Counted from the stretch's first letter, positions 23,282 through 58,094 are shown. The stretch: DNA of 64,000 nucleotides from a virus (IMGVR_UViG_3300021963_000027:1-64000), one strand, 5' to 3'. The notes: generated from the sequence alone by a model not told the origin. Translations and numbers: made by a program.

Positions 23282-24661
23282 ATGATTAGTATCTCTAAAA
23301 ATGCAGACCCGAATTACCTTGCTACGGTAATTGAATGCCCTGAATTGAAGAATCATCCAAATGCTGACCGTCTGGAGATTACTAATGTGTTTGGTGGTGA
23401 TGTGATCGTTGCCAAAGGACAGTATCAAAAAGGCGAATTGCTATGCTATTTTCCAGTGGAGTCTTGTATCTCACAGAAGTTCTTGGCATGGGCTAATCTG
23501 TTAGATAAAGCAGAATCGAATGCTGATGGTAAGACCAAGGGCTTTTTCTCATCGAAAAATGGTCGTGTTCGTGCTATTAAATTAAGAGAGATTCCAAGTC
23601 AAGGATTCCTTTTCAAAGTCTCTAAGCTTGCTGAATACTACGGTGTTAAAGAATCTGTGTTCAAATTGGGAGAGTCATTTGATACTATCAATGATGATCT
23701 ACTGGTGAAGAAATATGTATCAGGAGAACGCAAGAGTGGAAATCAGAATGAGTCTAAGAAGCGCATTCCAAAATGGATTGAAAATACTGTTCGTATCTTC
23801 CCTCTTCCCATTCGTAAGCGTCTATACACTGGTATCAATTACTTCTACGATAAGAACAAGCAAGGTATCGGTAGCTTGATTGTGGATGGGCATTGGGCAT
23901 TCCATTATAAAACAGAAGGGGCTGGTAGAAATATACACATTTTATCACCAGAGGATACAATAATTATTACAGAAAAATTACACGGTGCTAATGGGGTATA
24001 TGGTAACATTCTTTGTAAAAAACCTTTTAATATTTTTCGATACTTTGGAAAAAAAATCGGTTTTAGTGTTGAAGAGACGGAACATAAGTTGGTTTACAGT
24101 AGCAGAAACATTCTAAAAAATAGGAGAGATGGTAAATATACTGATGATGTGTGGGGCAATGTAGCACAAGATATTGATGGTAAATTACCAAAGGATATTA
24201 TTCTATATGGAGAATTAATCGGTTGGTCATCTGATAATAAATGTATTCAGAAGAATTATGACTACTCACTGCCTAATGGTAAGGTCGGGTTTAGAGTATT
24301 TCGTGGAGTTCGAAATACTCAAGAAGGTAAACAAATTGAACTATCTTGGGATGAGCTTGTGGAAATTTGTGAATATTCAAATTTGGAAATGGTTCCCATT
24401 CACTATAAAGGCTTGGTAAAAGATTTGTTTGATATTCATATTGATGATACATGGCGCGATAAATTTCTTTCAAATCTGGCGAAAAAATTCTTCAAAAATA
24501 AATGCCATTATTGTAAAAATTCTGTTGTAAATGAGGGGGTCGTGTTGAGAATCGAATCTTCCGAGCGCAAAACAGTATTAAAATATAAAAATCCGAGCTT
24601 TCTAGTACAAGAAAGTAGTGCCAGAGATATCAACGAAGAAAATATTGATGAAGAAAATTAA
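23282..24661 (+). CDS. RNA ligase (Rnl2/DRB0094-like) with N-terminal OB-like domain
   Basis: HPNADRLEI, ITEKLHG, YGEL, EGVVLR, LKYK. Confidence 0.85.
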   Translation: MISISKNADPNYLATVIECPELKNHPNADRLEITNVFGGDVIVAKGQYQKGELLCYFPVESCISQKFLAWANLLDKAESNADGKTKGFFSSKNGRVRAIKLREIPSQGFLFKVSKLAEYYGVKESVFKLGESFDTINDDLLVKKYVSGERKSGNQNESKKRIPKWIENTVRIFPLPIRKRLYTGINYFYDKNKQGIGSLIVDGHWAFHYKTEGAGRNIHILSPEDTIIITEKLHGANGVYGNILCKKPFNIFRYFGKKIGFSVEETEHKLVYSSRNILKNRRDGKYTDDVWGNVAQDIDGKLPKDIILYGELIGWSSDNKCIQKNYDYSLPNGKVGFRVFRGVRNTQEGKQIELSWDELVEICEYSNLEMVPIHYKGLVKDLFDIHIDDTWRDKFLSNLAKKFFKNKCHYCKNSVVNEGVVLRIESSERKTVLKYKNPSFLVQESSARDINEENIDEEN

Positions 24662-25428
24662 TCAACATATTTCATCATATAAGTCTCGTTTCGTTGTTTA
24701 CCAGTGCATAGGTTTCTTATACTTGTTCTACTGAGTCCAAGTGTTTTAGCGGCATAAGATACTGATTCATAAACTGTCTCGATATTAGAAACTTTATCGA
24801 GACAGTTTATCGCTCTTCTTGTGTCGGTAGAAATCGGTTCTATGTGATCTCCCATATAAGAAGATTTGAATACGTAACCACCGCATTGTTTGGTTTTATT
24901 CGATAAAACATTACAAATACCGCTATGTGAGTATAAATTTAATTGTCTAGCCGCTTCTGTATAGCCTATAAAAGAACCAACATACCCACCAGTAATGTGA
25001 TTATATACATAAACTTGTTTGCTAAGAATACATTTTTCACCTGTTTTACCCTTTGTATGCGAATTTTTACTCATTTTAATTTTAGTTTCCTCACTGTGTC
25101 GTAATCCAACGCAACCTCTACCCTTAGAACAGATATTATATCCGTTCGGTGTTAAACTATTATATTTGATTATCATTTGTTCTTCCAAATTCCATAATTG
25201 TTCTTTGTTTGCATTTGGGAAATATTCAACATGTATTTCGAAATTATCACGACCATATTTTCTTATGGCGTTGTGGATCAAGCTACGTTTTTCCGCACCG
25301 ACTCTGCTTCTATGCTCACATATTCGTTTATGGATATTTATAGTTTCTCCGATATAACATTTACCATTTATTAGATTTTTAATAATGTAAATCCCCGCAT
25401 TGTTTTCAAATTTATCGTTTAATTTCAT
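24658..25428 (-). CDS. GIY-YIG homing endonuclease with NUMOD-type repeats
   Basis: GIYIIKNLINGKCYIGET; HSEETKIKMS. Confidence 0.9.
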   Translation of the reverse strand: MKLNDKFENNAGIYIIKNLINGKCYIGETINIHKRICEHRSRVGAEKRSLIHNAIRKYGRDNFEIHVEYFPNANKEQLWNLEEQMIIKYNSLTPNGYNICSKGRGCVGLRHSEETKIKMSKNSHTKGKTGEKCILSKQVYVYNHITGGYVGSFIGYTEAARQLNLYSHSGICNVLSNKTKQCGGYVFKSSYMGDHIEPISTDTRRAINCLDKVSNIETVYESVSYAAKTLGLSRTSIRNLCTGKQRNETYMMKYVD

Positions 25429-40298: not shown

Positions 40299-40595
40299 AT
40301 GAACATCGACAACATCGAAAAAGCATTATTTATCAAACAAAGAATTGACAATAACAACATCGCAATTAAAAAAATTGATTCTCTACTCGCGAAATATCCT
40401 AATGGAAACTCCGATGGTAAGTCATTTAATGGAGATGGTAAAATTTACGCTCTTTATTTGGGAGAGTATAAAGATGGTAGTGGAATTTCGATTGAACTTA
40501 CTGGTTCATTGATTCAAACCCAATTATTGGAAAATGCGATGCGATTATTGGAAGCTCAAATCGAAAATGATATCAAAATTATCGAATCTCTATAA
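40299..40595 (+). CDS. hypothetical protein
   Basis: Leaderless. Confidence 0.8.
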   Translation: MNIDNIEKALFIKQRIDNNNIAIKKIDSLLAKYPNGNSDGKSFNGDGKIYALYLGEYKDGSGISIELTGSLIQTQLLENAMRLLEAQIENDIKIIESL

Positions 40596-40618
40596 AAACT
40601 AGAATACACTAAAAGCAC

Positions 40619-40753
40619 ATGAAATACATATATCGAATCTGGAACTTCTTCTCTCCCCCTGCCACTCCCACCTATGGTTGGAAAATCCTTGAACAACGGT
40701 CTTGGCTTGAAAAACAAGTGCAAGAAGAATTACTGAAACGCCGCGAATACTAA
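40619..40753 (+). CDS. hypothetical protein (44 aa)
   Basis: After M-promoter. Confidence 0.65.
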   Translation: MKYIYRIWNFFSPPATPTYGWKILEQRSWLEKQVQEELLKRREY

Positions 40754-40754
40754 T

Positions 40755-41072
40755 ATGACAATCGCTCAACAATTAAAGATTAAAGAATTCCCATTCAGCA
40801 TCAAAGATTCCAAAGGTAATGTGATTTACTTCGAGAACTCCGATGGATATTGGATTAAACGTGAATACGATTCCAATGGTAATCGGATTTACTACGAGGA
40901 CTCTGATGGAGGTTGGATTAAGCGTGAATACGATTCTGATGGTAAAGAGATTTACTACGAATCTTCTTTCGGAACAGTCATTGATAATCGTCCCAAGACA
41001 GAAATCCAGAAAGCAATTGAACTTCTCACGAAAGAAGGGTTGATCGTGGATGGTAAGATTTTAAAAAACTAG
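40755..41072 (+). CDS. 21-aa-repeat family paralog C (3 units)
   Basis: Same family. Confidence 0.9.
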   Translation: MTIAQQLKIKEFPFSIKDSKGNVIYFENSDGYWIKREYDSNGNRIYYEDSDGGWIKREYDSDGKEIYYESSFGTVIDNRPKTEIQKAIELLTKEGLIVDGKILKN

Positions 41073-41086
41073 AGTATAATCAACAC

Positions 41087-41278
41087 ATGAACAAACCATA
41101 TTTATATCAGGCAGGTTACTCCCTTGACACCGTAGAGGCTGGAAAATGCCAAATCCGAACCACGGACATTCGTGGGAATACTGTGAAATTGTCAGGCTGG
41201 TTTAAAGATGACAAGGCAGCACAAAAAGAGTTAATACGCCGCCAACGTGAATTTGGCAGCGCATACGGTTGCCGATAA
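41087..41278 (+). CDS. hypothetical protein
   Basis: Leaderless. Confidence 0.75.
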   Translation: MNKPYLYQAGYSLDTVEAGKCQIRTTDIRGNTVKLSGWFKDDKAAQKELIRRQREFGSAYGCR

Positions 41279-41300
41279 AAAACTAGAGTATAATAACGAC

Positions 41301-41528
41301 ATGGTAACTAATGAACATTTGATTCAATGGGCAAAACACAGATGTGCAAGCGAAAATAGTTCTCCTGAATACCAACTATTTGCTGAAATCACCGCACGAT
41401 ATGAAGCGTCTTTAGAAATGTTGGATATTGTTTCTCGACATTGTTTGATGTTTAGTAATGATCGCAAGATTTTCATGGAAAATCTTATAATTTGGGCTAA
41501 AAAATATAATAATATACCAGATGCCTAA
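41301..41528 (+). CDS. hypothetical protein
   Basis: Leaderless. Confidence 0.75.
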   Translation: MVTNEHLIQWAKHRCASENSSPEYQLFAEITARYEASLEMLDIVSRHCLMFSNDRKIFMENLIIWAKKYNNIPDA

Positions 41529-41644
41529 GATTAAAGTCTATCTCGATACAAACCAAGCTAAGGGATTCCCAATCTCTGAAAAGAATCGTAAGCGGTCTTT
41601 TTTCACTAGACTTTTACGAAAGATTTGGTAAGTATCATAATAAT

Positions 41645-41739
41645 AAGGGTGTACCAGTACGCACTTCTAATGCGTGGACGTTTAAATATACTGTAATTGG
41701 ATATGTCCTATGTAGGTTCGAATCCTATCATCCTTGCCA
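41645..41739 (+). tRNA. atypical tRNA-Arg(TCT)-like RNA, no D-arm, 36-nt variable region
   Basis: Acceptor AAGGGTG/CATCCTT+GCCA; ACGCA-CTTCTAA-TGCGT; GTAGG-TTCGAAT-CCTAT. Confidence 0.65.
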
Positions 41740-42655
41740 CTTTTCTAATGAAATAACCTCTTGGTGGGTAATCTATAATACCATATGATTTACACCACTT
41801 TCTAACAGCATTATCTGATATATTATATTTCTTTCCTATTTTTGTGAATGGTAATTCCCATAGTAAATTCTCCAATTCTTCTTTACTAGGTTTTATTCGA
41901 TGTGAATATTGTTTGATCGCAGAACATCGTTTACACCTATAAGACGTTTTGGATATATCAACACCGCAATCTAAACACTTTTTAACCACTTTGTTTTTTG
42001 GAACATAATTGAAGTAATCAAATTCAACTTTAACATTCGCATTTGATAACTTATCTATAAAATCACTCCACTTATCTAAATTAAAACATGCTGAATAATG
42101 AATCTCATATACATCCCATCCACTAAATTCTAACAAATCATGTCTTTCCTGATAGTAAGCTTTCAATGTTCCATCTCTTTCATAATGTTGATTACCATTG
42201 ATTTCTAAAGCTATCATCTTATCGGGTAATGCTATATCAATTGAAAAAGCTCTCCCATTAATCTCTGGTTGATATTCTTCTATAAATGGTATATTCAATT
42301 GAGATAGAAATTCTTTCACTTTCTCACAAGGTTTTGATTTGAACTTGTCTTTATTTCTCCATGGATGTTTATCGGGATTATCTTTCAACCATTGCTTTCT
42401 CTTCTCTGATAGATTCCTTTTTGTTTCCTCTGTATGTTTTTTTCTTATGTTGATATTTTCATTGACGATGAATAATTTTTGTTCTCTCGCATTTTTAAGT
42501 GCTGCATATGGTAATTTATATTCCTTCCTTAATTTAGACATTGTAACGCCTCTATCGTGTAACTCTTGAATATGATTCCAGTCGTATCTATCTTCTAATT
42601 TACCCCATCGCAACTCATTCATGATTTTTGCTCTATCTTTATCAATCGAACTCAT
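41708..42655 (-). CDS. PD-(D/E)XK (DUF559/Vsr-like) endonuclease with NUMOD3-like, Zn-ribbon and HTH parts
   Basis: FSIDIALPDKMIALEINGNQHY; CLDCG..CKRC; TAAATA 5 nt upstream of ATG 42655. Confidence 0.8.
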   Translation of the reverse strand: MSSIDKDRAKIMNELRWGKLEDRYDWNHIQELHDRGVTMSKLRKEYKLPYAALKNAREQKLFIVNENINIRKKHTEETKRNLSEKRKQWLKDNPDKHPWRNKDKFKSKPCEKVKEFLSQLNIPFIEEYQPEINGRAFSIDIALPDKMIALEINGNQHYERDGTLKAYYQERHDLLEFSGWDVYEIHYSACFNLDKWSDFIDKLSNANVKVEFDYFNYVPKNKVVKKCLDCGVDISKTSYRCKRCSAIKQYSHRIKPSKEELENLLWELPFTKIGKKYNISDNAVRKWCKSYGIIDYPPRGYFIRKVARMIGFEPT

Positions 42656-42748
42656 ATTATTATTTATCTCCAATGTTAATATTTTTGCTCTATCCAATAA
42701 ATAAAGATATTGACTAATTAAAAAACTAGAATACACTTTTCATACAAT

Positions 42749-42820
42749 GCGCTTGTAGCTAATTGGTCTAGCGATCTGCTCATAACGGATGGCAAGCAGG
42801 TTCGATTCCTGTCGGGCGCA
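42749..42820 (+). tRNA. tRNA-Met/Ile2 (CAT)
   Basis: Cloverleaf, ATCTG-CTCATAA-CGGAT; no encoded CCA. Confidence 0.85.
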
Positions 42821-42854
42821 TCAACTTTTTAAAAAACTAGAATACAATCAACAC

Positions 42855-43109
42855 ATGACAATCGCCAAACAATTAAAGATTAAAGAATTCCCATTCATCA
42901 TCAAAGATTCTAATGGTGAAGGGATTTACCGTGAGGACTCTGATGGATATTGGGAGAAGATAGAACGAAATTCAAAGGGTAAAGTGATTTTCTTCAAAAA
43001 CTCCAATGGAACAATCTATGATAATCGTCCCAAGACAGATGTTCAGAAAGCCATTGAACTTCTCACGAAAGAAGGATTGATCGTGGATGGTAAGATTTTA
43101 AAAAACTAG
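42855..43109 (+). CDS. 21-aa-repeat family paralog D (2 units)
   Basis: Same family; leaderless. Confidence 0.9.
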   Translation: MTIAKQLKIKEFPFIIKDSNGEGIYREDSDGYWEKIERNSKGKVIFFKNSNGTIYDNRPKTDVQKAIELLTKEGLIVDGKILKN

Positions 43110-43123
43110 AATACAATCATAAC

Positions 43124-43504
43124 ATGACAATCGCCAAACAATTAAAGATTAAAGAATTCCCATTTGAAATCAACGATTCCAAGGGTGATCGGATTTACTG
43201 GGAGGACTCTGATGGATATTGGATTAAACGTGAATACGATTCCAATGGTAATATGATTTACTGGGAGAACTCTGATGGACTTTGTGAGAAGCGTGGATAC
43301 GATTCCAAAGGTAATGAGATTTACGTAGAGTATTCCAACGGAAGTTGGGAGAAGCGTGAATACGATTCCAAGAGTAATCAGATTTACTACGAGGACTCTG
43401 ATGGCTTGATCGTTGATAATCGTCCCAAGACAGATGTTCAGAAAGCAATTGAACTTCTCACGAAAGAAGGGTTGATCGTAGATGGTAAGATTTTAAAAAA
43501 CTAG
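43124..43504 (+). CDS. 21-aa-repeat family paralog E (4 units)
   Basis: Same family; leaderless. Confidence 0.9.
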   Translation: MTIAKQLKIKEFPFEINDSKGDRIYWEDSDGYWIKREYDSNGNMIYWENSDGLCEKRGYDSKGNEIYVEYSNGSWEKREYDSKSNQIYYEDSDGLIVDNRPKTDVQKAIELLTKEGLIVDGKILKN

Positions 43505-43518
43505 AATACAATCAACAC

Positions 43519-43698
43519 ATGACAACTCAAGAAATAGACTCATTGGAAAGCACATTTGATAGCGTGGCATCTGAAATTCTCGATACTCTACGTGATCATC
43601 CTGACTATGTTTCGATTAAAGTTAAATTTGATTCAATGCAAACGATGATGCAGAAAGCTATCGGAGAAAAATTTCCTGATAGTTGGATGGCAAAATAA
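43519..43698 (+). CDS. hypothetical protein (59 aa)
   Basis: Leaderless. Confidence 0.7.
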   Translation: MTTQEIDSLESTFDSVASEILDTLRDHPDYVSIKVKFDSMQTMMQKAIGEKFPDSWMAK

Positions 43699-52066: not shown

Positions 52067-52141
52067 GTTGTCGGTGGCGAAGTGGTAACGCGAGGCTGAA
52101 TTAACAGCAAGAAACGTGAGTTCGATTCTCACCCGACGACA
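52067..52141 (+). ncRNA. tRNA-like RNA with 6-nt AATTAA anticodon loop
   Basis: Acceptor GTTGTCGG/CCGACGAC, D-arm, GTGAG-TTCGATT-CTCAC; starts at +1 of M-promoter. Confidence 0.7.
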
Positions 52142-52174
52142 CACTCTTTAAAAACTAACCTAAAATAATACCAC

Positions 52175-53938: not shown

Positions 53939-54079
53939 ATGAAAACTTACTACGCGCATATCCGTCTGACTAACCGCGAGCGCAGTCTGCTCGCGCAAGC
54001 AATCCGCATCAATCGCCACCAGCGCAAAACCTTCACCCGTAAAGATGCCCACAATCTGGCATGGGTGCTGTTCGCATAA
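53939..54079 (+). CDS. basic peptide (46 aa)
   Basis: Motif-bounded. Confidence 0.65.
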   Translation: MKTYYAHIRLTNRERSLLAQAIRINRHQRKTFTRKDAHNLAWVLFA

Positions 54080-54108
54080 TTAAAAAACTAGAGTAAACTG
54101 ATTACGTC

Positions 54109-54396
54109 ATGAAAACACAAAAAGAGATTAAATTAAAAGACGGTTCAACGCTTGCCAAAGGTCTGCCAGTATCATTCGTTGCTGGCAGTGATAGCCGATG
54201 CCTTGTGCATTCTCCCGCGCATTCTGAGCCGTTGCAAGTGCGCATCACAAGCGCGTTCAAAGCACCTTCCATGGCTTCTCTGGAACGCTGGGGAATGGAT
54301 GGCGTGTGCAAGACTCCCACGGGCAAGCGTGTCGAGCCTGATGGATACGGTTCTGATGGTAGCCCGTCATGGCTGCTGGTTTTCGGACTCATCTGA
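54109..54396 (+). CDS. hypothetical protein
   Basis: CKTPTGKRVEPDG..DGSPSWLL. Confidence 0.85.
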   Translation: MKTQKEIKLKDGSTLAKGLPVSFVAGSDSRCLVHSPAHSEPLQVRITSAFKAPSMASLERWGMDGVCKTPTGKRVEPDGYGSDGSPSWLLVFGLI

Positions 54397-54456
54397 ATCC
54401 AAGGGGGGAGCGCATCCTACACGCTCATTAAAAAACTAGACTAAACTGATTGCACC

Positions 54457-54612
54457 ATGAAAGTCTATATCTCTTACAACTGTGGTTTCGCTTGCATCCG
54501 TGAAATGGGAACTGACAAAGTTCTCCACGAACTCAAAGGCAAGCGTTCTATTGAACAGCACTTTGCTACTGGTAAAACCTATGCCAAGAAAATGGGATGG
54601 GAACTCGCATAA
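54457..54612 (+). CDS. hypothetical protein (51 aa)
   Basis: Motif-bounded. Confidence 0.65.
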   Translation: MKVYISYNCGFACIREMGTDKVLHELKGKRSIEQHFATGKTYAKKMGWELA

Positions 54613-54640
54613 TTAAAAACTAGCCTAAACTGATTGCACC

Positions 54641-54805
54641 ATGAAATACAACGTAACTAATATTCAATGGGATACCGATGGTATCCCTAACAAATCCCTT
54701 CCGACAAGCATCACCCTTGAAGTGGAAGATGAAGATGATGTGATAGATGATCTTTCCGATGAATATGGCTTTTGCATATTCTCTGCTGACATTGAAGAAG
54801 CGTAA
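54641..54805 (+). CDS. acidic hypothetical protein (54 aa)
   Basis: IQWDTDG..LSDEYGFC. Confidence 0.75.
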   Translation: MKYNVTNIQWDTDGIPNKSLPTSITLEVEDEDDVIDDLSDEYGFCIFSADIEEA

Positions 54806-54833
54806 TTAAAAACTAGCCTAAACTGATTGCACC

Positions 54834-54929
54834 ATGAAACTCGACACTAACAAATGCAAGGGACTTCCAATGGGAGTCCGCAATCGCAAGCGCACGATCC
54901 TATCCAAGATCATCCGCTGGTTCAATTAA
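54834..54929 (+). CDS. basic peptide (31 aa)
   Basis: Motif-bounded. Confidence 0.6.
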   Translation: MKLDTNKCKGLPMGVRNRKRTILSKIIRWFN

Positions 54930-54951
54930 AAAACTAGACTAAACTACTACC

Positions 54952-55254
54952 ATGTCCAACACCATCAACACCCTGTCAGGCAAGTGCGCGAAATCATTCG
55001 CGTGGAAACCATTCGCGTCCGCGACTATCGCAAAAGGTAAAATTCCCTTTGCTTTCTGGGAGTCAAACCGATCAAAACGTGAGTGCAATAGCATCACGGT
55101 GATTGAGTTCGACTCGGAGCATGAAATTTCATCATGGATCTCGGATCTCTGCTCTGGTGCAATCATTTGCGATTCCAACTATTTCTGGTGCGTCTCAGTG
55201 AATGGTAAATTCGAATCATCAAAATCTCGCTACGGTGGATACCTCAGTGCCTAA
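54952..55254 (+). CDS. hypothetical protein
   Basis: Leaderless. Confidence 0.8.
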   Translation: MSNTINTLSGKCAKSFAWKPFASATIAKGKIPFAFWESNRSKRECNSITVIEFDSEHEISSWISDLCSGAIICDSNYFWCVSVNGKFESSKSRYGGYLSA

Positions 55255-55297
55255 CGGTGCTGGGGCTTTTAAAAAACTAGACTAAACTGTTACTACC

Positions 55298-55504
55298 ATG
55301 AGACTTCAAACCATCATCAATCAATTCGCCATCACCACGCGCAAAACACGCGAGGGCAATACCATCGTGGAAGCACCCATCGGCACTGAGTATCGTCGCT
55401 TTCTTTTCAACCTTCAGGACTACGTTGTCACGGGTTGCGCTGGTGATATGGTATGGCTTAGTCCACGCCAAGGTTTCTATGGCGGTGTCCCATACGGCAA
55501 TTAA
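55298..55504 (+). CDS. hypothetical protein
   Basis: Motif-bounded. Confidence 0.8.
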   Translation: MRLQTIINQFAITTRKTREGNTIVEAPIGTEYRRFLFNLQDYVVTGCAGDMVWLSPRQGFYGGVPYGN

Positions 55505-55529
55505 AAAACTAGACTAAACTGTTACTACC

Positions 55530-55766
55530 ATGAGAAAAGGATACGGACCAACCAACGTTAGCTACCACCTCCCCCTTCAGCGTTTCACCGAGATGGTGAA
55601 GCAGGGGATCAACATCGCTCAGGGAGTCGATGACAATAACAAAGTGCTTTCCAGCACACTGCCGCAAAACCTATCGGAAAATTCAATCAAAAGAATTTTC
55701 GACGATGCGGATTGCGTCTGCTACCACGGAGGTGTTCAGATGATCATCCCCCGTCATCTTGCTTAA
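55530..55766 (+). CDS. hypothetical protein
   Basis: Motif-bounded. Confidence 0.8.
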   Translation: MRKGYGPTNVSYHLPLQRFTEMVKQGINIAQGVDDNNKVLSSTLPQNLSENSIKRIFDDADCVCYHGGVQMIIPRHLA

Positions 55767-55826
55767 AGACTAGGGGGGAGCGCATCCTACACGCTCATTA
55801 AAAAACTAGAGTAAACTGTTACTACC

Positions 55827-56039
55827 ATGATTACTGTATTGACCATCGAAGACCTTGAAACAATCATCACCAAAACGTCCCCGCGCCTTAGTGCGCTCGG
55901 AATCGTGTACGCAATCATCAATGATGATACTGATGAAGAAGTCACAAGCCGATACCCCACAATCGAGGAAGCGTGGGATGAATTTAAAAAGACTTGGGTT
56001 GTCGGGACGTTCACCGTTCTCACAATCTTTAGATCCTGA
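55827..56039 (+). CDS. hypothetical protein
   Basis: Motif-bounded. Confidence 0.8.
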   Translation: MITVLTIEDLETIITKTSPRLSALGIVYAIINDDTDEEVTSRYPTIEEAWDEFKKTWVVGTFTVLTIFRS

Positions 56040-56068
56040 TTAAAAAACTAGAGTAAACTGTTACTACC

Positions 56069-56305
56069 ATGAATACTACCACTGCTACCACCGCCACCGC
56101 CAAGAACTTCATCGTTGCCTTCCACGACTGGCAAGGCAATCGCCATACAGTTCAAGTCAAAGCTTCCGATAAAACGTCCGCATACGATGCGGCGTGGCAA
56201 TGGATTGAAGAGAATCGCGGCGACCAACTGGAAATTGAATTTGCGGGTGTTAAAGAGATTGTCTATCTCAAAGACATCATCGCAGAAGCACTGGCTGCAA
56301 ATTAA
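56069..56305 (+). CDS. hypothetical protein
   Basis: Motif-bounded. Confidence 0.8.
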   Translation: MNTTTATTATAKNFIVAFHDWQGNRHTVQVKASDKTSAYDAAWQWIEENRGDQLEIEFAGVKEIVYLKDIIAEALAAN

Positions 56306-56327
56306 AAAACTAGAGTAAAATAGCTCT

Positions 56328-56420
56328 GTCAACCCCTTCCAACTATCGCGAAGGGTCAACCTGAACCATCAACTACCCCGTCTCTCCCGACCACAGGGAG
56401 GGGCGGGGCAACCAATCTGC
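56328..56420 (+). ncRNA. ORF-less M-promoter cassette with two hairpins
   Basis: No ATG; CCCTT/AAGGG and 13-bp GC stem 56376-56408. Confidence 0.45.
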
Positions 56421-56451
56421 TTTTAAAAAACTAGAGTAGACTGCTACTACC

Positions 56452-56670
56452 ATGAATTACATCACTCCAGAATACGACTTCACAGGACGCTGCACTCCAT
56501 CGGAGGAAGCACAACGCAAGGAAGCGCAAGCGTTCGCCGCCTATCGCGAAAAGGAAGAAGCTAAAAAATTCAAGGTGCGCGATGCCTTCGGGTTCTCCCG
56601 CTACGCCACCTTGGAAGAAGCGCAAGCGTTCGCCGCCACCCTCAAGAATGCAGAGATCATCATCCTATAA
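56452..56670 (+). CDS. hypothetical protein with internal repeat EEAQRK/AFAA
   Basis: Motif-bounded. Confidence 0.75.
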   Translation: MNYITPEYDFTGRCTPSEEAQRKEAQAFAAYREKEEAKKFKVRDAFGFSRYATLEEAQAFAATLKNAEIIIL

Positions 56671-56699
56671 TTAAAAAACTAGAGTAAACTGATTACGCC

Positions 56700-56909
56700 A
56701 TGAATGAAATTACTGCTGACGAGGCACTTGCCCAAATTCGCTCCATGTCCGATAGAGAGTTAGTTGCTTTCTGGAATGTCTTGCAATTCTCTTCCCGTAT
56801 GGTAGGGAGCGGTCGCGACACTTTCAGAGAACCACTGGTTTCTCTTGTCATGAGTGAGCGCAAAATCCCTCATGAGATTGGGAAGCGAACTCTAACATCT
56901 AACATCTAA
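56700..56909 (+). CDS. hypothetical protein
   Basis: Motif-bounded. Confidence 0.75.
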   Translation: MNEITADEALAQIRSMSDRELVAFWNVLQFSSRMVGSGRDTFREPLVSLVMSERKIPHEIGKRTLTSNI

Positions 56910-56942
56910 CATCTAACGCCCACGGTCTAACAGATCGTGGGC
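56891..56942 (+). repeat. 52-bp direct repeat copy 1: (TCTAACA)3 + hairpin
   Basis: Identical to 58097-58148. Confidence 0.9.
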
Positions 56943-56969
56943 TTTTAAAAACTAGAGCAAACTGTTGCC

Positions 56970-58094
56970 ATGCCTACTACCAATACTACCACTGCTACCA
57001 TCCCCGCCTCCGCCCGTGCAGCATTCATCGCTGCCCTCGTCAAACTCAATCGTCGCGCTGCTCGCTTGGGCTGCGCACCACTGACAATCGTATCGACAGT
57101 CGATACGATCGTGGAGATCGACAGAGTGAAGTTCCCTGCGCTCCGTCTCGAAATCGCAGGTACAACACCAACTTTTTCAGGTTGGACGTTTGCCGCCTCT
57201 GTCGAAGCACTTGACACTGGAAAAAACATCTTCCATGGTGCTAGCGACATCCCTGCGCGATTCGCTAGCACTGGTCACGCCTGTGAGCATTGCAACCAAA
57301 ATCGCAAGCGCAACTCCAGCTTCATCTTGAGCCATGAAGCAGGTGACTACAAGCAGGTTGGTTCGACCTGCATCAACGACTTCCTCGGTGGTAATCACTT
57401 GCCAGTGTTCAATTTCCTCTCGAATGCGCGTGAGATTCTCAGCGAGTTTGAGAGCTTCGCAAACGCTACCATTGACAGCGTGAGCGTGATCACCACCCTC
57501 GTGGCATCCGCCGCCACGATTCGAGAGCATGGCTTCGCGAAGAAAACAGGATGGGATGGTGAAGGTGCGCGTCCCACGGCATCTCTCGTCGAATCGTTTC
57601 TTTTGGACGTTCGCAACCCTAAGCGTTTCGTTCCTGACATCACGGAAAACGATGAGGCGAAAGCAGAAGCCGTTCGCGCTTGGTTGGTCAACCACGAAGG
57701 AACGCAAAGCGATTACCTGCAAAAGCTGATCGACTTGGCAGCAGCAACACGGGTGTCATCTCGAAACATCGGTATCCTCGCATCGTCCATCGCCGCCTAT
57801 GATCGCGAGTTAGAGCGCAAAGCACAAGTCCTTGCCAGTCCTTCCAATCACGTTGGAACGGTGGGCAAGCGTGAGTCGTTCACCGTCTCTCTCACTGGTT
57901 GCAAGGTGCTTCCCGACTATGGCTATGGTTGCTCAAATCTCTATTCATTCAAGGACGAAAACGGCAACATCCTGAAGTGGAAAACACAAGCGCAACTCGA
58001 ACGCACTGGCACGTTCCAGATCACTGGAACGGTGAAATCACACGGTGCGTGGAACGGCGTGAGTGAAACCGAACTGACTCGGTGCAAAGTCTAA
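56970..58094 (+). CDS. 374-aa protein with CxxC Zn motif and C-terminal OB-fold-like region
   Basis: CEHCNQNRKRN..VGSTC; HVGTVGKRESF..FKDENGNILKW..ITGTVKSH. Confidence 0.8.
   Translation: MPTTNTTTATIPASARAAFIAALVKLNRRAARLGCAPLTIVSTVDTIVEIDRVKFPALRLEIAGTTPTFSGWTFAASVEALDTGKNIFHGASDIPARFASTGHACEHCNQNRKRNSSFILSHEAGDYKQVGSTCINDFLGGNHLPVFNFLSNAREILSEFESFANATIDSVSVITTLVASAATIREHGFAKKTGWDGEGARPTASLVESFLLDVRNPKRFVPDITENDEAKAEAVRAWLVNHEGTQSDYLQKLIDLAAATRVSSRNIGILASSIAAYDRELERKAQVLASPSNHVGTVGKRESFTVSLTGCKVLPDYGYGCSNLYSFKDENGNILKWKTQAQLERTGTFQITGTVKSHGAWNGVSETELTRCKV

What the first reader, a model, noticed from the sequence alone, without database searches (positions are those of the whole stretch)
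41645..41739. D-armless tRNA-Arg(TCT) with D-loop-like GG relocated into a giant variable arm
Seen: normal acceptor with CCA, anticodon arm and T-arm, but only 7 nt (TACCAGT) where the D-arm belongs. The 36-nt variable region forms GGACGT/ATGTCC and contains AATTGGAT, a D-loop-like string; CAGT can pair with ACTG in that loop. Known: D-armless tRNAs are typical of animal mitochondria, not bacteria. Inference: a rewired fold in which the variable arm supplies the elbow contact, possibly evading host tRNA nucleases.
Basis: partly seen in the sequence, partly recalled or inferred. Interest (0 to 1): 0.7.

Follow-up and report, generated by a model that had tools for sequence, protein, structure and literature searches.

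The report
Phage arginine tRNA with rewired D-arm
This 95-base phage gene is very probably a working arginine tRNA whose D-arm pieces are strung in a different order from the textbook cloverleaf, plus an extra helix that knots it; natural tRNAs of this kind are not described for bacterial translation.

Summary
Acceptor stem with CCA, anticodon arm (TCT) and T-arm are normal. Only 7 nt sit where the D-arm belongs, and a 36-nt "variable" region carries TAATTGGA.

It is not a decayed gene. I collected 65 distinct relatives from viral contigs: 54 with arginine anticodons, 10 Ile-type, 1 TCA. In all of them a 3-nt strand just before the anticodon arm pairs with a 3-nt strand just before the D-loop-like motif. 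Two of these pairs hold in 45/45 sequences, with 3 and 5 pair types.

Other canonical marks are kept:
- The 15:48 tertiary pair covaries (A:T 60, G:C 5, none mixed).
- A20, the ArgRS identity base, is present in 54/54 arginine-type members.

A model built without this lineage scores the element at 59 bits; Rfam's tRNA model gives 31.

Specific to this lineage is a 6-bp helix (GGACGT/ATGTCC) that crosses the rebuilt D-stem, making a pseudoknot. Three other sub-lineages have analogous helices of unrelated sequence.

The element is the contig's only Arg tRNA, and AGA is its commonest Arg codon.

Expression, charging and nuclease evasion are untested. I found no paper describing this wiring. This scan has already noted the same family on other genomes several times.

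The parts
41645..41651 (+). Acceptor stem, 5' strand (AAGGGTG).
   Evidence: Pairs with 41729-41735 (7 bp, one G-U). The acceptor columns covary across the family at 98% paired. The nearest relative, L011, has G1-C72 where the window has A1-T72.
41652..41654 (+). T-A (equivalent to U8, A9) plus one linker nucleotide (C).
   Evidence: TA is invariant in 45/45 and 55/55 aligned members.
41655..41657 (+). Strand X (CAG). It plays the role of the D-stem 3' strand (positions 23-25) and runs directly into N26 and the anticodon stem.
   Evidence: Pairs with 41691-41693. Columns 12:50 and 13:49 are paired in 45/45 sequences with 3 and 5 pair types; the third pair forms in 29/45. RNAalifold predicts this helix unaided.
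41658..41658 (+). Position-26 equivalent (T).
   Evidence: Variable in the family (A24, C21, G17, T3). Its pairing with A41690 is not conserved (11/65).
41659..41675 (+). Anticodon arm: 5-bp stem and 7-nt loop CTTCTAA. Anticodon TCT (41666-41668) reads AGA, and possibly AGG.
   Evidence: The stem columns are 100% paired with covariation. The loop pattern C/T32, T33, A37 holds in all 65 members.
41676..41681 (+). Helix V, 5' strand (GGACGT), starting directly after the anticodon stem.
   Evidence: 6 bp with 41703-41708. It adds about -6.4 kcal/mol by nearest-neighbour rules. Analogous helices of unrelated sequence occur in L193 (GGGC/GCCT), L203 (CCTT/AAGG) and L180/L122 (GTCGT/GTGAC).
41682..41690 (+). 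Connector (TTAAATATA) between helix V and strand X'.
   Evidence: Read from the sequence. It shares the CGTT(T)AA... spacer motif with the L010/L178 subfamily.
41691..41693 (+). Strand X' (CTG). It plays the role of the D-stem 5' strand (positions 10-12).
   Evidence: Complementary to 41655-41657. The closest short subfamily has CTC/GAG here, a change on both sides at two pairs.
41694..41702 (+). D-loop-like segment T-AATTGGA-T: A14, A15, T16, T17, G18, G19, A20 equivalents.
   Evidence: T, A and GG are invariant or nearly so. The base after GG is A in 54/54 Arg-type members and mostly T in Ile-type members. A15 covaries with the base before the T stem.
41703..41708 (+). Helix V, 3' strand (ATGTCC).
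   Evidence: Pairs with 41676-41681. This helix crosses X:X', so the two together form a pseudoknot.
41709..41711 (+). T-A-T tail. The final T is the position-48 equivalent (Levitt partner of A15), preceded by a conserved A.
   Evidence: The last two bases before the T stem are AT in 57/65 and AC in 5/65. The 15:48 pairing is A:T in 60, G:C in 5 and mixed in none.
41712..41728 (+). T arm: GTAGG / TTCGAAT / CCTAT.
41729..41739 (+). Acceptor stem 3' strand (CATCCTT), discriminator G, and encoded CCA.
   Evidence: CCA is encoded in 23 of the 65 members.

Best explanation
The element is a gene for a functional arginine tRNA (anticodon UCU, reading AGA) that belongs to a family found almost entirely in phages. 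In this family two adjacent internal segments of the cloverleaf are in swapped order.

Wiring:
- In a normal tRNA the order is [D-stem 5' strand + D-loop] then [D-stem 3' strand + anticodon arm].
- Here the order is U8-A9, then [D-stem 3' strand + anticodon arm], then [D-stem 5' strand + D-loop], then the T arm.
- The two D-stem strands (CAG 41655-57 and CTG 41691-93) therefore pair around the anticodon arm and extend it coaxially.
- The D-loop (A14, A15, G18, G19, A20) then runs into the T arm through a conserved A-T.

Inference: because U8, A14, the 15:48 pair, G18-G19 and the T-loop are all kept, the molecule should still fold into the usual L-shape, be charged by ArgRS through A20, C35 and U36, and be used by EF-Tu and the ribosome.

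This lineage has added a 6-bp helix (41676-81 with 41703-08). Its base sits where a class II variable arm would sit, and its loop holds the displaced D segment. Together with the rebuilt D-stem it makes a pseudoknot.

Shown here: the sequence layout, the family, the covariation, and the codon-usage fit.
Inferred: the 3D fold, charging, decoding, and the coexistence of both helices.
For: 1. Family. 65 distinct members were parsed from viral contigs without requiring the long-range pairing: anticodons TCT 35, ACG 8, CCT 7, TCG 4, GAT 7, TAT 3, TCA 1.
2. Rebuilt D-stem. Two pairs hold in 45/45 sequences with 3 and 5 pair types. The whole structure is 95.9% paired, against 58.8% in shuffles and 41-48% when partners are slid. 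The result is the same on an alignment without the window. RNAalifold finds the helix by itself.
3. Membership. Model R1, built without this lineage, gives 59.1 bits, E = 1.7e-14.
4. Tertiary logic. The 15:48 pair is A:T in 60, G:C in 5, and never mixed. TA after the acceptor, the T-A before the loop, and GG are invariant.
5. Identity. A follows GG in 54/54 Arg-type members; Ile-type members mostly have T.
6. Need. It is the only Arg tRNA among the contig's 12 tRNAs (11 by ARAGORN plus this one). AGA makes up 46.5% of Arg codons. The other phage tRNAs also read A-ending codons.
7. Setting. Family members lie inside tRNA arrays: 539 ARAGORN tRNAs in 70 member-bearing loci. In Klebsiella phage Iguana_ER37 one lies between tRNA-Leu and tRNA-Cys.
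8. Helix V. Four independent sequence versions sit at the same place in four sub-lineages.
Against: - There are no expression, processing, charging or structure-probing data for any member.
- The rebuilt stem is short: 3 bp, and the third pair is broken in about a third of members. Alone it contributes roughly 0 kcal/mol by nearest-neighbour rules, while helix V contributes -6.4 kcal/mol and competes topologically with it.
- Only one base (T41702) separates A20 from helix V, which may strain the elbow contact or ArgRS access.
- Helix V has no covariation inside this lineage; only two variants were found, identical in V.
- Several phages carry a rewired and a canonical tRNA with the same anticodon, so the rewired one need not be a plain decoder.
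- My search patterns required TTCRAWTCC, and mostly TGGA as well, which inflates the apparent invariance of those motifs.
Confidence: 0.7

Rival explanations
1. The RNA and fold are the same, but it is not a decoder. It would be a tRNA mimic serving as a decoy or sponge for a host tRNA-directed nuclease or modification enzyme, as a regulator, or as a primer.
For: Rewired and canonical tRNAs with the same anticodon coexist in several phage loci. The family is found almost only in viral sequence: 1 member among the first 120 pattern hits in cellular genomes, against 29 member-bearing loci among 120 in viral contigs. The window also encodes an RNA ligase, a gene type linked, from general knowledge of T4, to repair of nuclease-cut tRNA.
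Against: The anticodon spectrum is four different arginine anticodons plus Ile types, each with a matching position-20 base. Anticodon-loop rules, the 7/5 acceptor/T geometry and the discriminator are kept. Here it is the only Arg tRNA in an AGA-rich genome.
Confidence: 0.12
2. In this particular lineage the strong helix V wins and the rebuilt D-stem does not form. The RNA would then be a truly D-armless tRNA with a giant variable arm, as in the first reader's drawing and the MFE fold, working like mitochondrial D-armless tRNAs or the engineered mini-HisT.
For: The MFE and centroid folds show helix V and no X:X'. V contributes -6.4 kcal/mol against about 0 for X. [quoted passage not shown]
Against: CAG/CTG stays complementary through changes on both sides relative to the CTC/GAG subfamily. 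The D-loop motif, A15:T48 and A20 are fully kept although they would be useless in that fold. A pseudoknot with 18-, 9- and 9-nt connectors is sterically ordinary (my inference).
Confidence: 0.1
3. The element is a decaying tRNA pseudogene, or debris from rearrangement next to the homing-endonuclease gene.
For: A homing-endonuclease-like ORF lies directly downstream, and in this window it even overlaps the 3' end antisense. ARAGORN misses the element and its Rfam score is marginal.
Against: All helices covary across 65 distinct sequences from many phage types. Copies identical or 97% identical recur in independent metagenomes. The nearest subfamily is kept in 268 cultured phage genomes. No fragments of a canonical tRNA lie nearby.
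Confidence: 0.05
4. The transcript is cut and re-ligated into a canonical cloverleaf order, analogous to permuted tRNA genes, perhaps using the phage RNA ligase.
For: An RNA ligase gene lies at 23282-24661. Permuted tRNA genes exist in algae (general knowledge).
Against: The swap is internal, so two cuts and two ligations would be needed. The termini are normal. No splicing motif is visible. I did not check whether the cultured phages that carry the family encode an RNA ligase.
Confidence: 0.03

Closest known systems
Canonical class I bacterial/phage tRNA-Arg(UCU) (Rfam RF00005; E. coli argU type, phage T4 tRNA-Arg)
   Same: 7-bp acceptor stem, discriminator and CCA. 5-bp anticodon stem with a C-U-UCU-A-A loop. 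5-bp T stem with a TTCGAAT loop. U8, A14, R15:Y48, G18-G19 and A20 equivalents are all present, and the presumed ArgRS identity set (A20, C35, U36) is kept.
   Different: The order of the segments along the chain differs. The D-stem 3' strand and anticodon arm come before the D-stem 5' strand and D-loop. There is therefore no D hairpin and no separate 44-48 variable loop, and the cloverleaf cannot be drawn.
D-armless mitochondrial tRNA-Ser(AGY) and engineered mini-HisT (PMC11551756)
   Same: [quoted passage not shown]
   Different: Those RNAs lack a D-loop and the D-loop/T-loop contact and adopt a Y-like shape. This family keeps the D-loop motif, the GG, the Levitt pair and a covarying D-stem made in trans along the chain. 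It is also used, presumably, in bacterial cytoplasm rather than in organelles.
Class II tRNAs with a long variable arm (Leu, Ser, Tyr) and allo-tRNAs (PMC5389517)
   Same: Helix V emerges right after the anticodon stem and ends 3 nt before the T stem, where a long variable arm sits. Like allo-tRNAs, this is a natural non-standard tRNA found in phages and metagenomes.
   Different: The loop of helix V contains the D-stem strand and the D-loop. There is no canonical D-arm. Acceptor/T geometry is 7/5, not 8/4 or 9/3. The anticodons are arginine types.
Permuted tRNA genes of Cyanidioschyzon merolae (general knowledge)
   Same: Parts of the tRNA are encoded in a non-canonical order.
   Different: There the whole molecule is circularly permuted at gene level and restored by processing. 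Here the termini are normal and the swap is internal, so the mature RNA itself is expected to be rewired.

Membership tests
Canonical cloverleaf tRNA (RF00005) | Acceptor stem of 7 bp, discriminator, 3' CCA or a site for it | tested here: met
   41645-51 pairs with 41729-35, followed by G and CCA.
Canonical cloverleaf tRNA (RF00005) | Anticodon arm (5 bp, 7-nt loop, U33, purine 37) and T arm (5 bp, TTCRANY loop) | tested here: met
Canonical cloverleaf tRNA (RF00005) | D hairpin between position 9 and position 26 | tested here: not met
   Only 7 nt lie there (41652-58). Rfam aligns 4 nt against 15 model positions. ARAGORN makes no call.
Canonical cloverleaf tRNA (RF00005) | Score at or above Rfam's gathering threshold | tested here: met
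   31.3 bits against a threshold of 29: marginal.
Rewired (segment-swapped D-arm) phage tRNA family, defined here by model R1 | TA plus a 5-6 nt linker, then the anticodon arm directly | tested here: met
   TACCAGT. All 65 members have 7- or 8-nt linkers starting with TA, but my parser required this.
Rewired (segment-swapped D-arm) phage tRNA family, defined here by model R1 | The 3-nt strand before N26 pairs with the 3-nt strand immediately 5' of the TAAYTGG motif | tested here: met
   CAG/CTG in the window. Covariation; the parser did not require this pairing.
Rewired (segment-swapped D-arm) phage tRNA family, defined here by model R1 | D-loop-like T-A-R-..-G-G-A, followed by a tail ending in A-Y that covaries with R15 | tested here: met
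   TAATTGGA ... TAT in the window. 15:48 is 60 A:T and 5 G:C.
Rewired (segment-swapped D-arm) phage tRNA family, defined here by model R1 | Significant score with a family model that was not trained on this sequence | tested here: met
   59.1 bits, E = 1.7e-14. The best canonical tRNA in the window scores 38.6.
Rewired (segment-swapped D-arm) phage tRNA family, defined here by model R1 | Expressed, processed and aminoacylated with arginine | not testable with these tools
   No transcript or charging data were available.
D-armless mitochondrial-type tRNA | Loss of the D-loop and of the D-loop/T-loop elbow contact; degenerate T-loop | tested here: not met
   The GG motif and the TTCGAAT T-loop are conserved, and 15:48 covaries.
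Class II (long variable arm) tRNA | Stem-loop between positions 44/45 and 48, in addition to a canonical D-arm | tested here: not met
   Helix V sits at that place. However, there is no canonical D-arm, and the loop of V carries the D segment.
allo-tRNA (8/4 or 9/3) | Acceptor/T stems of 8/4 or 9/3 bp | tested here: not met
   7/5 here and in the aligned family.

The most novel reading that the evidence does not exclude
The rewiring is adaptive rather than neutral. By changing chain connectivity while keeping the L-shape, and here by adding a knotting helix, phages would obtain arginine (and some isoleucine) tRNAs that the translation apparatus still accepts. A host tRNA-directed defence nuclease or decay pathway, or the phage's own host-tRNA-destroying enzyme, would no longer recognise or unfold them. 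This would explain why the design is almost confined to phages and why it coexists with canonical isoacceptors.
Probability: 0.2. Interest if true: 0.92.

Novelty: new variant of a known kind. Interest (0 to 1): 0.82.

Why it matters
[quoted passage not shown] A natural, widespread tRNA design with swapped segments, used in bacterial cells, would be an exception to one of the most conserved structures in biology.

Close relatives occur in Escherichia, Salmonella and Klebsiella phages, including Felixounavirus, 121Q-like and Justusliebigvirus phages.

If confirmed, it would bear on several questions:
- It shows that the L-shape can be reached by another chain topology.
- It gives ArgRS, RNase P, EF-Tu and modification enzymes a natural test substrate.
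- It exposes a blind spot of tRNA finders. These genes are mostly unannotated, called 'tRNA-OTHER' or 'tRNA-Leu', or covered by 'hypothetical protein' calls.
- It offers new scaffolds for orthogonal tRNAs.

The window's member is the longest seen (92 nt plus CCA) and the clearest case of an added, pseudoknot-forming helix.

Tried and rejected
- Megablast and blastn of the region and of the 95-nt element against cultured phages found no match to the element itself.
- The metagenome scan for more variants of this lineage returned only copies identical to the two known variants, plus short-type members. Helix V therefore cannot be tested by covariation within the lineage.
- The single-sequence folding energy is not significant.
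- The promoter/terminator scan around the gene is not above chance. A TTTACG-17-CATAAT site ends 3 nt before the gene, but I give it no weight.
- I looked for 26:44-type covariation and for a conserved fourth X pair; neither exists.
- I tested whether rewired and canonical tRNAs with the same anticodon exclude each other. They do not.
- I first took the phage to be T4-like because of its RNA ligase and tRNA cluster. I dropped that: its RNA ligase is under 33% identical to anything in cultured phages.
- A permissive Rfam search of 40500-43500 found no leftover fragments of a canonical tRNA-Arg.
- Six literature searches and two targeted reads found no description of this wiring. The library lacks most subscription journals, so older phage tRNA papers could not be excluded.

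Full report
**What is in the sequence.**
Window 41645-41739(+) reads as follows:
- acceptor AAGGGTG;
- TACCAGT;
- anticodon arm ACGCA-CTTCTAA-TGCGT (anticodon TCT);
- a 36-nt region;
- T arm GTAGG-TTCGAAT-CCTAT;
- CATCCTT, G, CCA.

Rfam's tRNA model reports the element just above threshold: 31.3 bits against 29, with the D-arm positions deleted and a 33-nt insertion. ARAGORN does not report it. One sequence alone cannot decide what this is.

**The host record.**
The window is the first 64 kb of a 184-kb IMG/VR virus contig. It has 35.6% G+C and no close cultured relative: nothing matches by megablast, and its RNA ligase is under 33% identical to any cultured-phage protein.

All of the contig's tRNAs lie in the window. 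They are Met x2, Gly-TCC, Asn, Lys-TTT, Glu-TTC, Thr-TGT, Tyr, Pro-TGG, Gln-TTG and one odd call. The element is therefore the only Arg tRNA. AGA is the commonest arginine codon of the contig: 46.5% of Arg codons, 18.4 per 1000 in 168 long ORFs.

**A family, not a wreck.**
An exact-pattern scan of viral contigs for a TCT anticodon loop followed at an abnormally long distance by the T-loop returned the window's near relatives and many other phage sequences with the same plan. Three further scans keyed on the D-loop-like motif next to the T arm enlarged the set.

I then applied a parser that asks only for:
- an acceptor stem;
- TA;
- an anticodon hairpin 7-8 nt after the acceptor;
- a TAR..GG motif;
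- the T arm.

It does not ask for any long-range pairing. It gave 65 distinct sequences from 70 loci (plus the window): anticodons TCT 35, ACG 8, CCT 7, TCG 4, GAT 7, TAT 3, TCA 1.

These genes lie inside tRNA arrays. ARAGORN finds 539 tRNAs in the 614 kb of member-bearing loci.

**The rebuilt D-stem.**
In every member, the 3 nt before the base that precedes the anticodon stem (strand X; CAG in the window) are complementary to the 3 nt immediately 5' of the T-A-A-Y-T-G-G-A motif (strand X'; CTG in the window). The pairs observed include CTC/GAG, CGG/CCG, CAG/CTG, CAC/GTG, CGC/GCG, CCC/GGG, CGA/TCG and CAA/TTG.

On a MAFFT alignment of 45 members:
- The first two pairs form in 45/45 sequences, with 3 and 5 pair types.
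- The third pair forms in 29/45.
- The whole structure is 95.9% paired, against 58.8% after shuffling and 41-48% when the partners are slid by 1-3 columns.

A second alignment of 55 members, leaving out the window and its near-identical relative, gives the same picture. RNAalifold predicts the helix on that alignment without being told.

In members with an 8-nt linker, two further bases pair with the two bases that follow GGA (18/20 and 25/30 cells). In those members the D-loop motif is an 8-nt bulge in one long helix that continues the anticodon stem.

**Reading the wiring.**
Strand X runs directly into position 26 and the anticodon stem, as positions 23-25 do in a normal tRNA. Strand X' is followed by T-A-A-Y-T-G-G-A, as positions 10-13 are followed by A14, R15, G18, G19 and N20.

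The family therefore has the two segments [10-21] and [22-43] in swapped order, while its ends are normal.

This is not a loss of the D-arm, because the tertiary logic of the canonical core is kept:
- TA after the acceptor (U8, A9) is invariant, and the T-A before the loop and the GG are invariant or nearly so.
- The base at the R15 place covaries perfectly with the base just before the T stem (the Y48 place): A:T in 60 members, G:C in 5 from at least three lineages, none mixed.
- The base after GG is A in all 54 arginine-type members. The Ile-type members mostly have T.

A20 together with C35 and U36/G36 is the established ArgRS identity set in E. coli (general knowledge; the review PMC9976931 was listed but not read).

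My search patterns did require the T-loop and mostly TGGA, so the invariance of those motifs is partly built in. The X:X' pairing, the 15:48 covariation and the anticodon spectrum were not built in.

**Membership of the window's element.**
Covariance model R1 was built from the 55-sequence alignment, which excludes this lineage. It scores 41645-41739 at 59.1 bits (E = 1.7e-14) and aligns CAG with CTG. The window's ordinary tRNAs score 38.6 bits or less.

The nearest relatives (L011/L036 = L049/L050, and metagenome copies L382 and L386) differ by A1-T72 to G1-C72, a change on both sides that keeps the pair, and by T to A at position 26. This fourth pair forms in only 11 of 65 members.

**What is special here: helix V.**
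The window's member is the longest found, at 92 nt plus CCA. The extra length is a 15-nt spacer and a 10-nt tail. They form GGACGT (41676-81) / ATGTCC (41703-08).

This helix starts directly after the anticodon stem and ends 3 nt before the T stem. That is exactly where a class II variable arm sits. Its 21-nt loop contains strand X' and the D-loop motif.

Along the chain the order is X, V5', X', V3', so the two helices cross and together form a pseudoknot, with connectors of 18, 9 and 9 nt.

By nearest-neighbour rules, helix V adds -6.4 kcal/mol and X:X' about 0. The low value for X:X' is what one expects for a D-stem that depends on tertiary contacts.

Within this lineage V shows no variation. 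Three other sub-lineages, however, carry a helix at the same two places with unrelated sequences:
- L193: GGGC/GCCT;
- L203: CCTT/AAGG;
- L180/L122: GTCGT/GTGAC.

I read this as repeated co-insertion of complementary strands, which supports V as a real helix.

Other members instead carry a small hairpin wholly inside the tail, for example L223 and L247. So the family has both 'class I-like' and 'class II-like' forms.

Two points stay open:
- whether V and X:X' coexist in this RNA;
- whether the single base between A20 and V (T41702) strains the elbow or ArgRS access.

**Distribution and annotation.**
The nearest short subfamily (spacer CGTTAATC, X/X' = CTC/GAG) is present in 268 cultured phage records. 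These include Klebsiella KB57-like phages, Felixounavirus members such as wV8, Escherichia phage 121Q and its relatives, Justusliebigvirus, and some Streptomyces and Campylobacter phages.

It is almost always unannotated. Otherwise it is labelled 'tRNA-OTHER', mislabelled tRNA-Leu, or lies under a 'hypothetical protein' call.

The same DNA pattern gave 29 member-bearing loci among the first 120 rows from viral contigs. It gave only one member among the first 120 rows from 185,579 prokaryote genomes, and that one lay on a 9-kb MAG contig.

**Function.**
The most economical reading is an AGA-decoding arginine tRNA that supplements the host pool for an A/T-rich phage, like the other tRNAs of this phage, which read A-ending codons.

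Against a purely supplementary role, several phages have a rewired and a canonical tRNA with the same anticodon. This leaves room for an adaptive reading, such as escape from a tRNA-directed nuclease or decay pathway. I could not test that reading.

The rivals are listed separately with odds:
- a non-decoding tRNA mimic;
- a fold in which V wins and the D-stem is not formed;
- a pseudogene;
- a cut-and-ligate processing scheme.

Only the pseudogene reading is clearly contradicted by my data.

**Comparison with what is known.**
- Ordinary tRNA-Arg: it shares everything except chain order.
- Mitochondrial D-armless tRNA-Ser and the engineered mini-HisT: these really lack the D-loop contact (PMC11551756), which this family keeps.
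- Allo-tRNAs: they have altered 8/4 or 9/3 acceptor/T geometry but a normal cloverleaf order (PMC5389517).
- Permuted tRNA genes: there the whole molecule is circularly permuted and then restored by processing (general knowledge).

Six full-text searches found no description of this wiring. The library misses most subscription journals.

Earlier notes of this same scan report the same family on other genomes at least eight times, with the same reading. I reached my reading before seeing them and re-derived the evidence here. The additions from this window are:
- the analysis of helix V;
- the point that the basic design is a nested long hairpin with a bulged D-loop, and that it becomes a pseudoknot only where helix V is added.

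**Surroundings.**
A homing-endonuclease-like ORF lies on the minus strand between this gene and tRNA-Met (42748). It has weak HNH PHROG hits, a weak RAP/PD-(D/E)XK-like Pfam hit and a Cys-rich C-terminal part.

In the relatives it stops just outside the tRNA. In the window a lost stop adds 10 codons that run antisense into 41708-41739. The overlap is therefore incidental.

The whole block, from the rewired tRNA through the endonuclease gene to tRNA-Met, is collinear at about 90% identity in two other contigs.

Noticed in passing
window 41708-42736 (-): Free-standing homing-endonuclease-like ORF between the rewired tRNA and tRNA-Met. It has weak HNH PHROG hits, a weak RAP (PD-(D/E)XK-like) Pfam hit around an ALEINGNQH motif, and a Cys-rich C-terminal region. 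In relatives L049/L050 it ends at ...YFIRK, before the tRNA. In the window a lost stop adds 10 codons antisense to the tRNA 3' end.
   Followed up: partly
window 52067-52142 (+): A second odd tRNA. ARAGORN calls it 'tRNA-???' with a two-base anticodon (tt), and Rfam gives 36.7 bits. The anticodon arm looks irregular (GGCTG-AATTAAC-AGCAA region).
   Followed up: no
L215:440-530 (+): A rewired-family member with anticodon TCA, which would read UGA. It has an Arg-type D-loop motif (GGA) and a hairpin in the tail, and may be a suppressor derived from the arginine type.
   Followed up: no
L004/L022, L012, L017/L020/L040, L028: Phage tRNAs with anticodon TCT that have a normal D-arm but a long, class II-like variable arm. 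This is another unusual arginine-anticodon design, distinct from the rewired family.
   Followed up: no
window 23282-25428: RNA ligase gene (PF09414 plus a PHA02142 OB domain). It is immediately followed, on the other strand, by a GIY-YIG/NUMOD homing endonuclease gene at 24658-25428.
   Followed up: partly
window 40755-41090, 42829-43527 and others: Paralogous small ORFs with internal repeats of about 63 nt flank the tRNA/endonuclease block. Many mutually similar segments (75-87% identity) appear in the window and in the relatives. This was also flagged by another first-reader note on this window.
   Followed up: no
window 54000-58000: G+C rises to 0.46-0.51 against a background of 0.35-0.38. 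The ORF at 56970-58094 matches only PHROGs of unknown function.
   Followed up: no
KM507819.1 73587-73666 (Escherichia phage 121Q) and other cultured phages: Public records annotate the rewired gene as 'tRNA-Leu' or 'tRNA-OTHER', not at all, or under 'hypothetical protein' and 'HNH endonuclease' CDS calls.
   Followed up: partly
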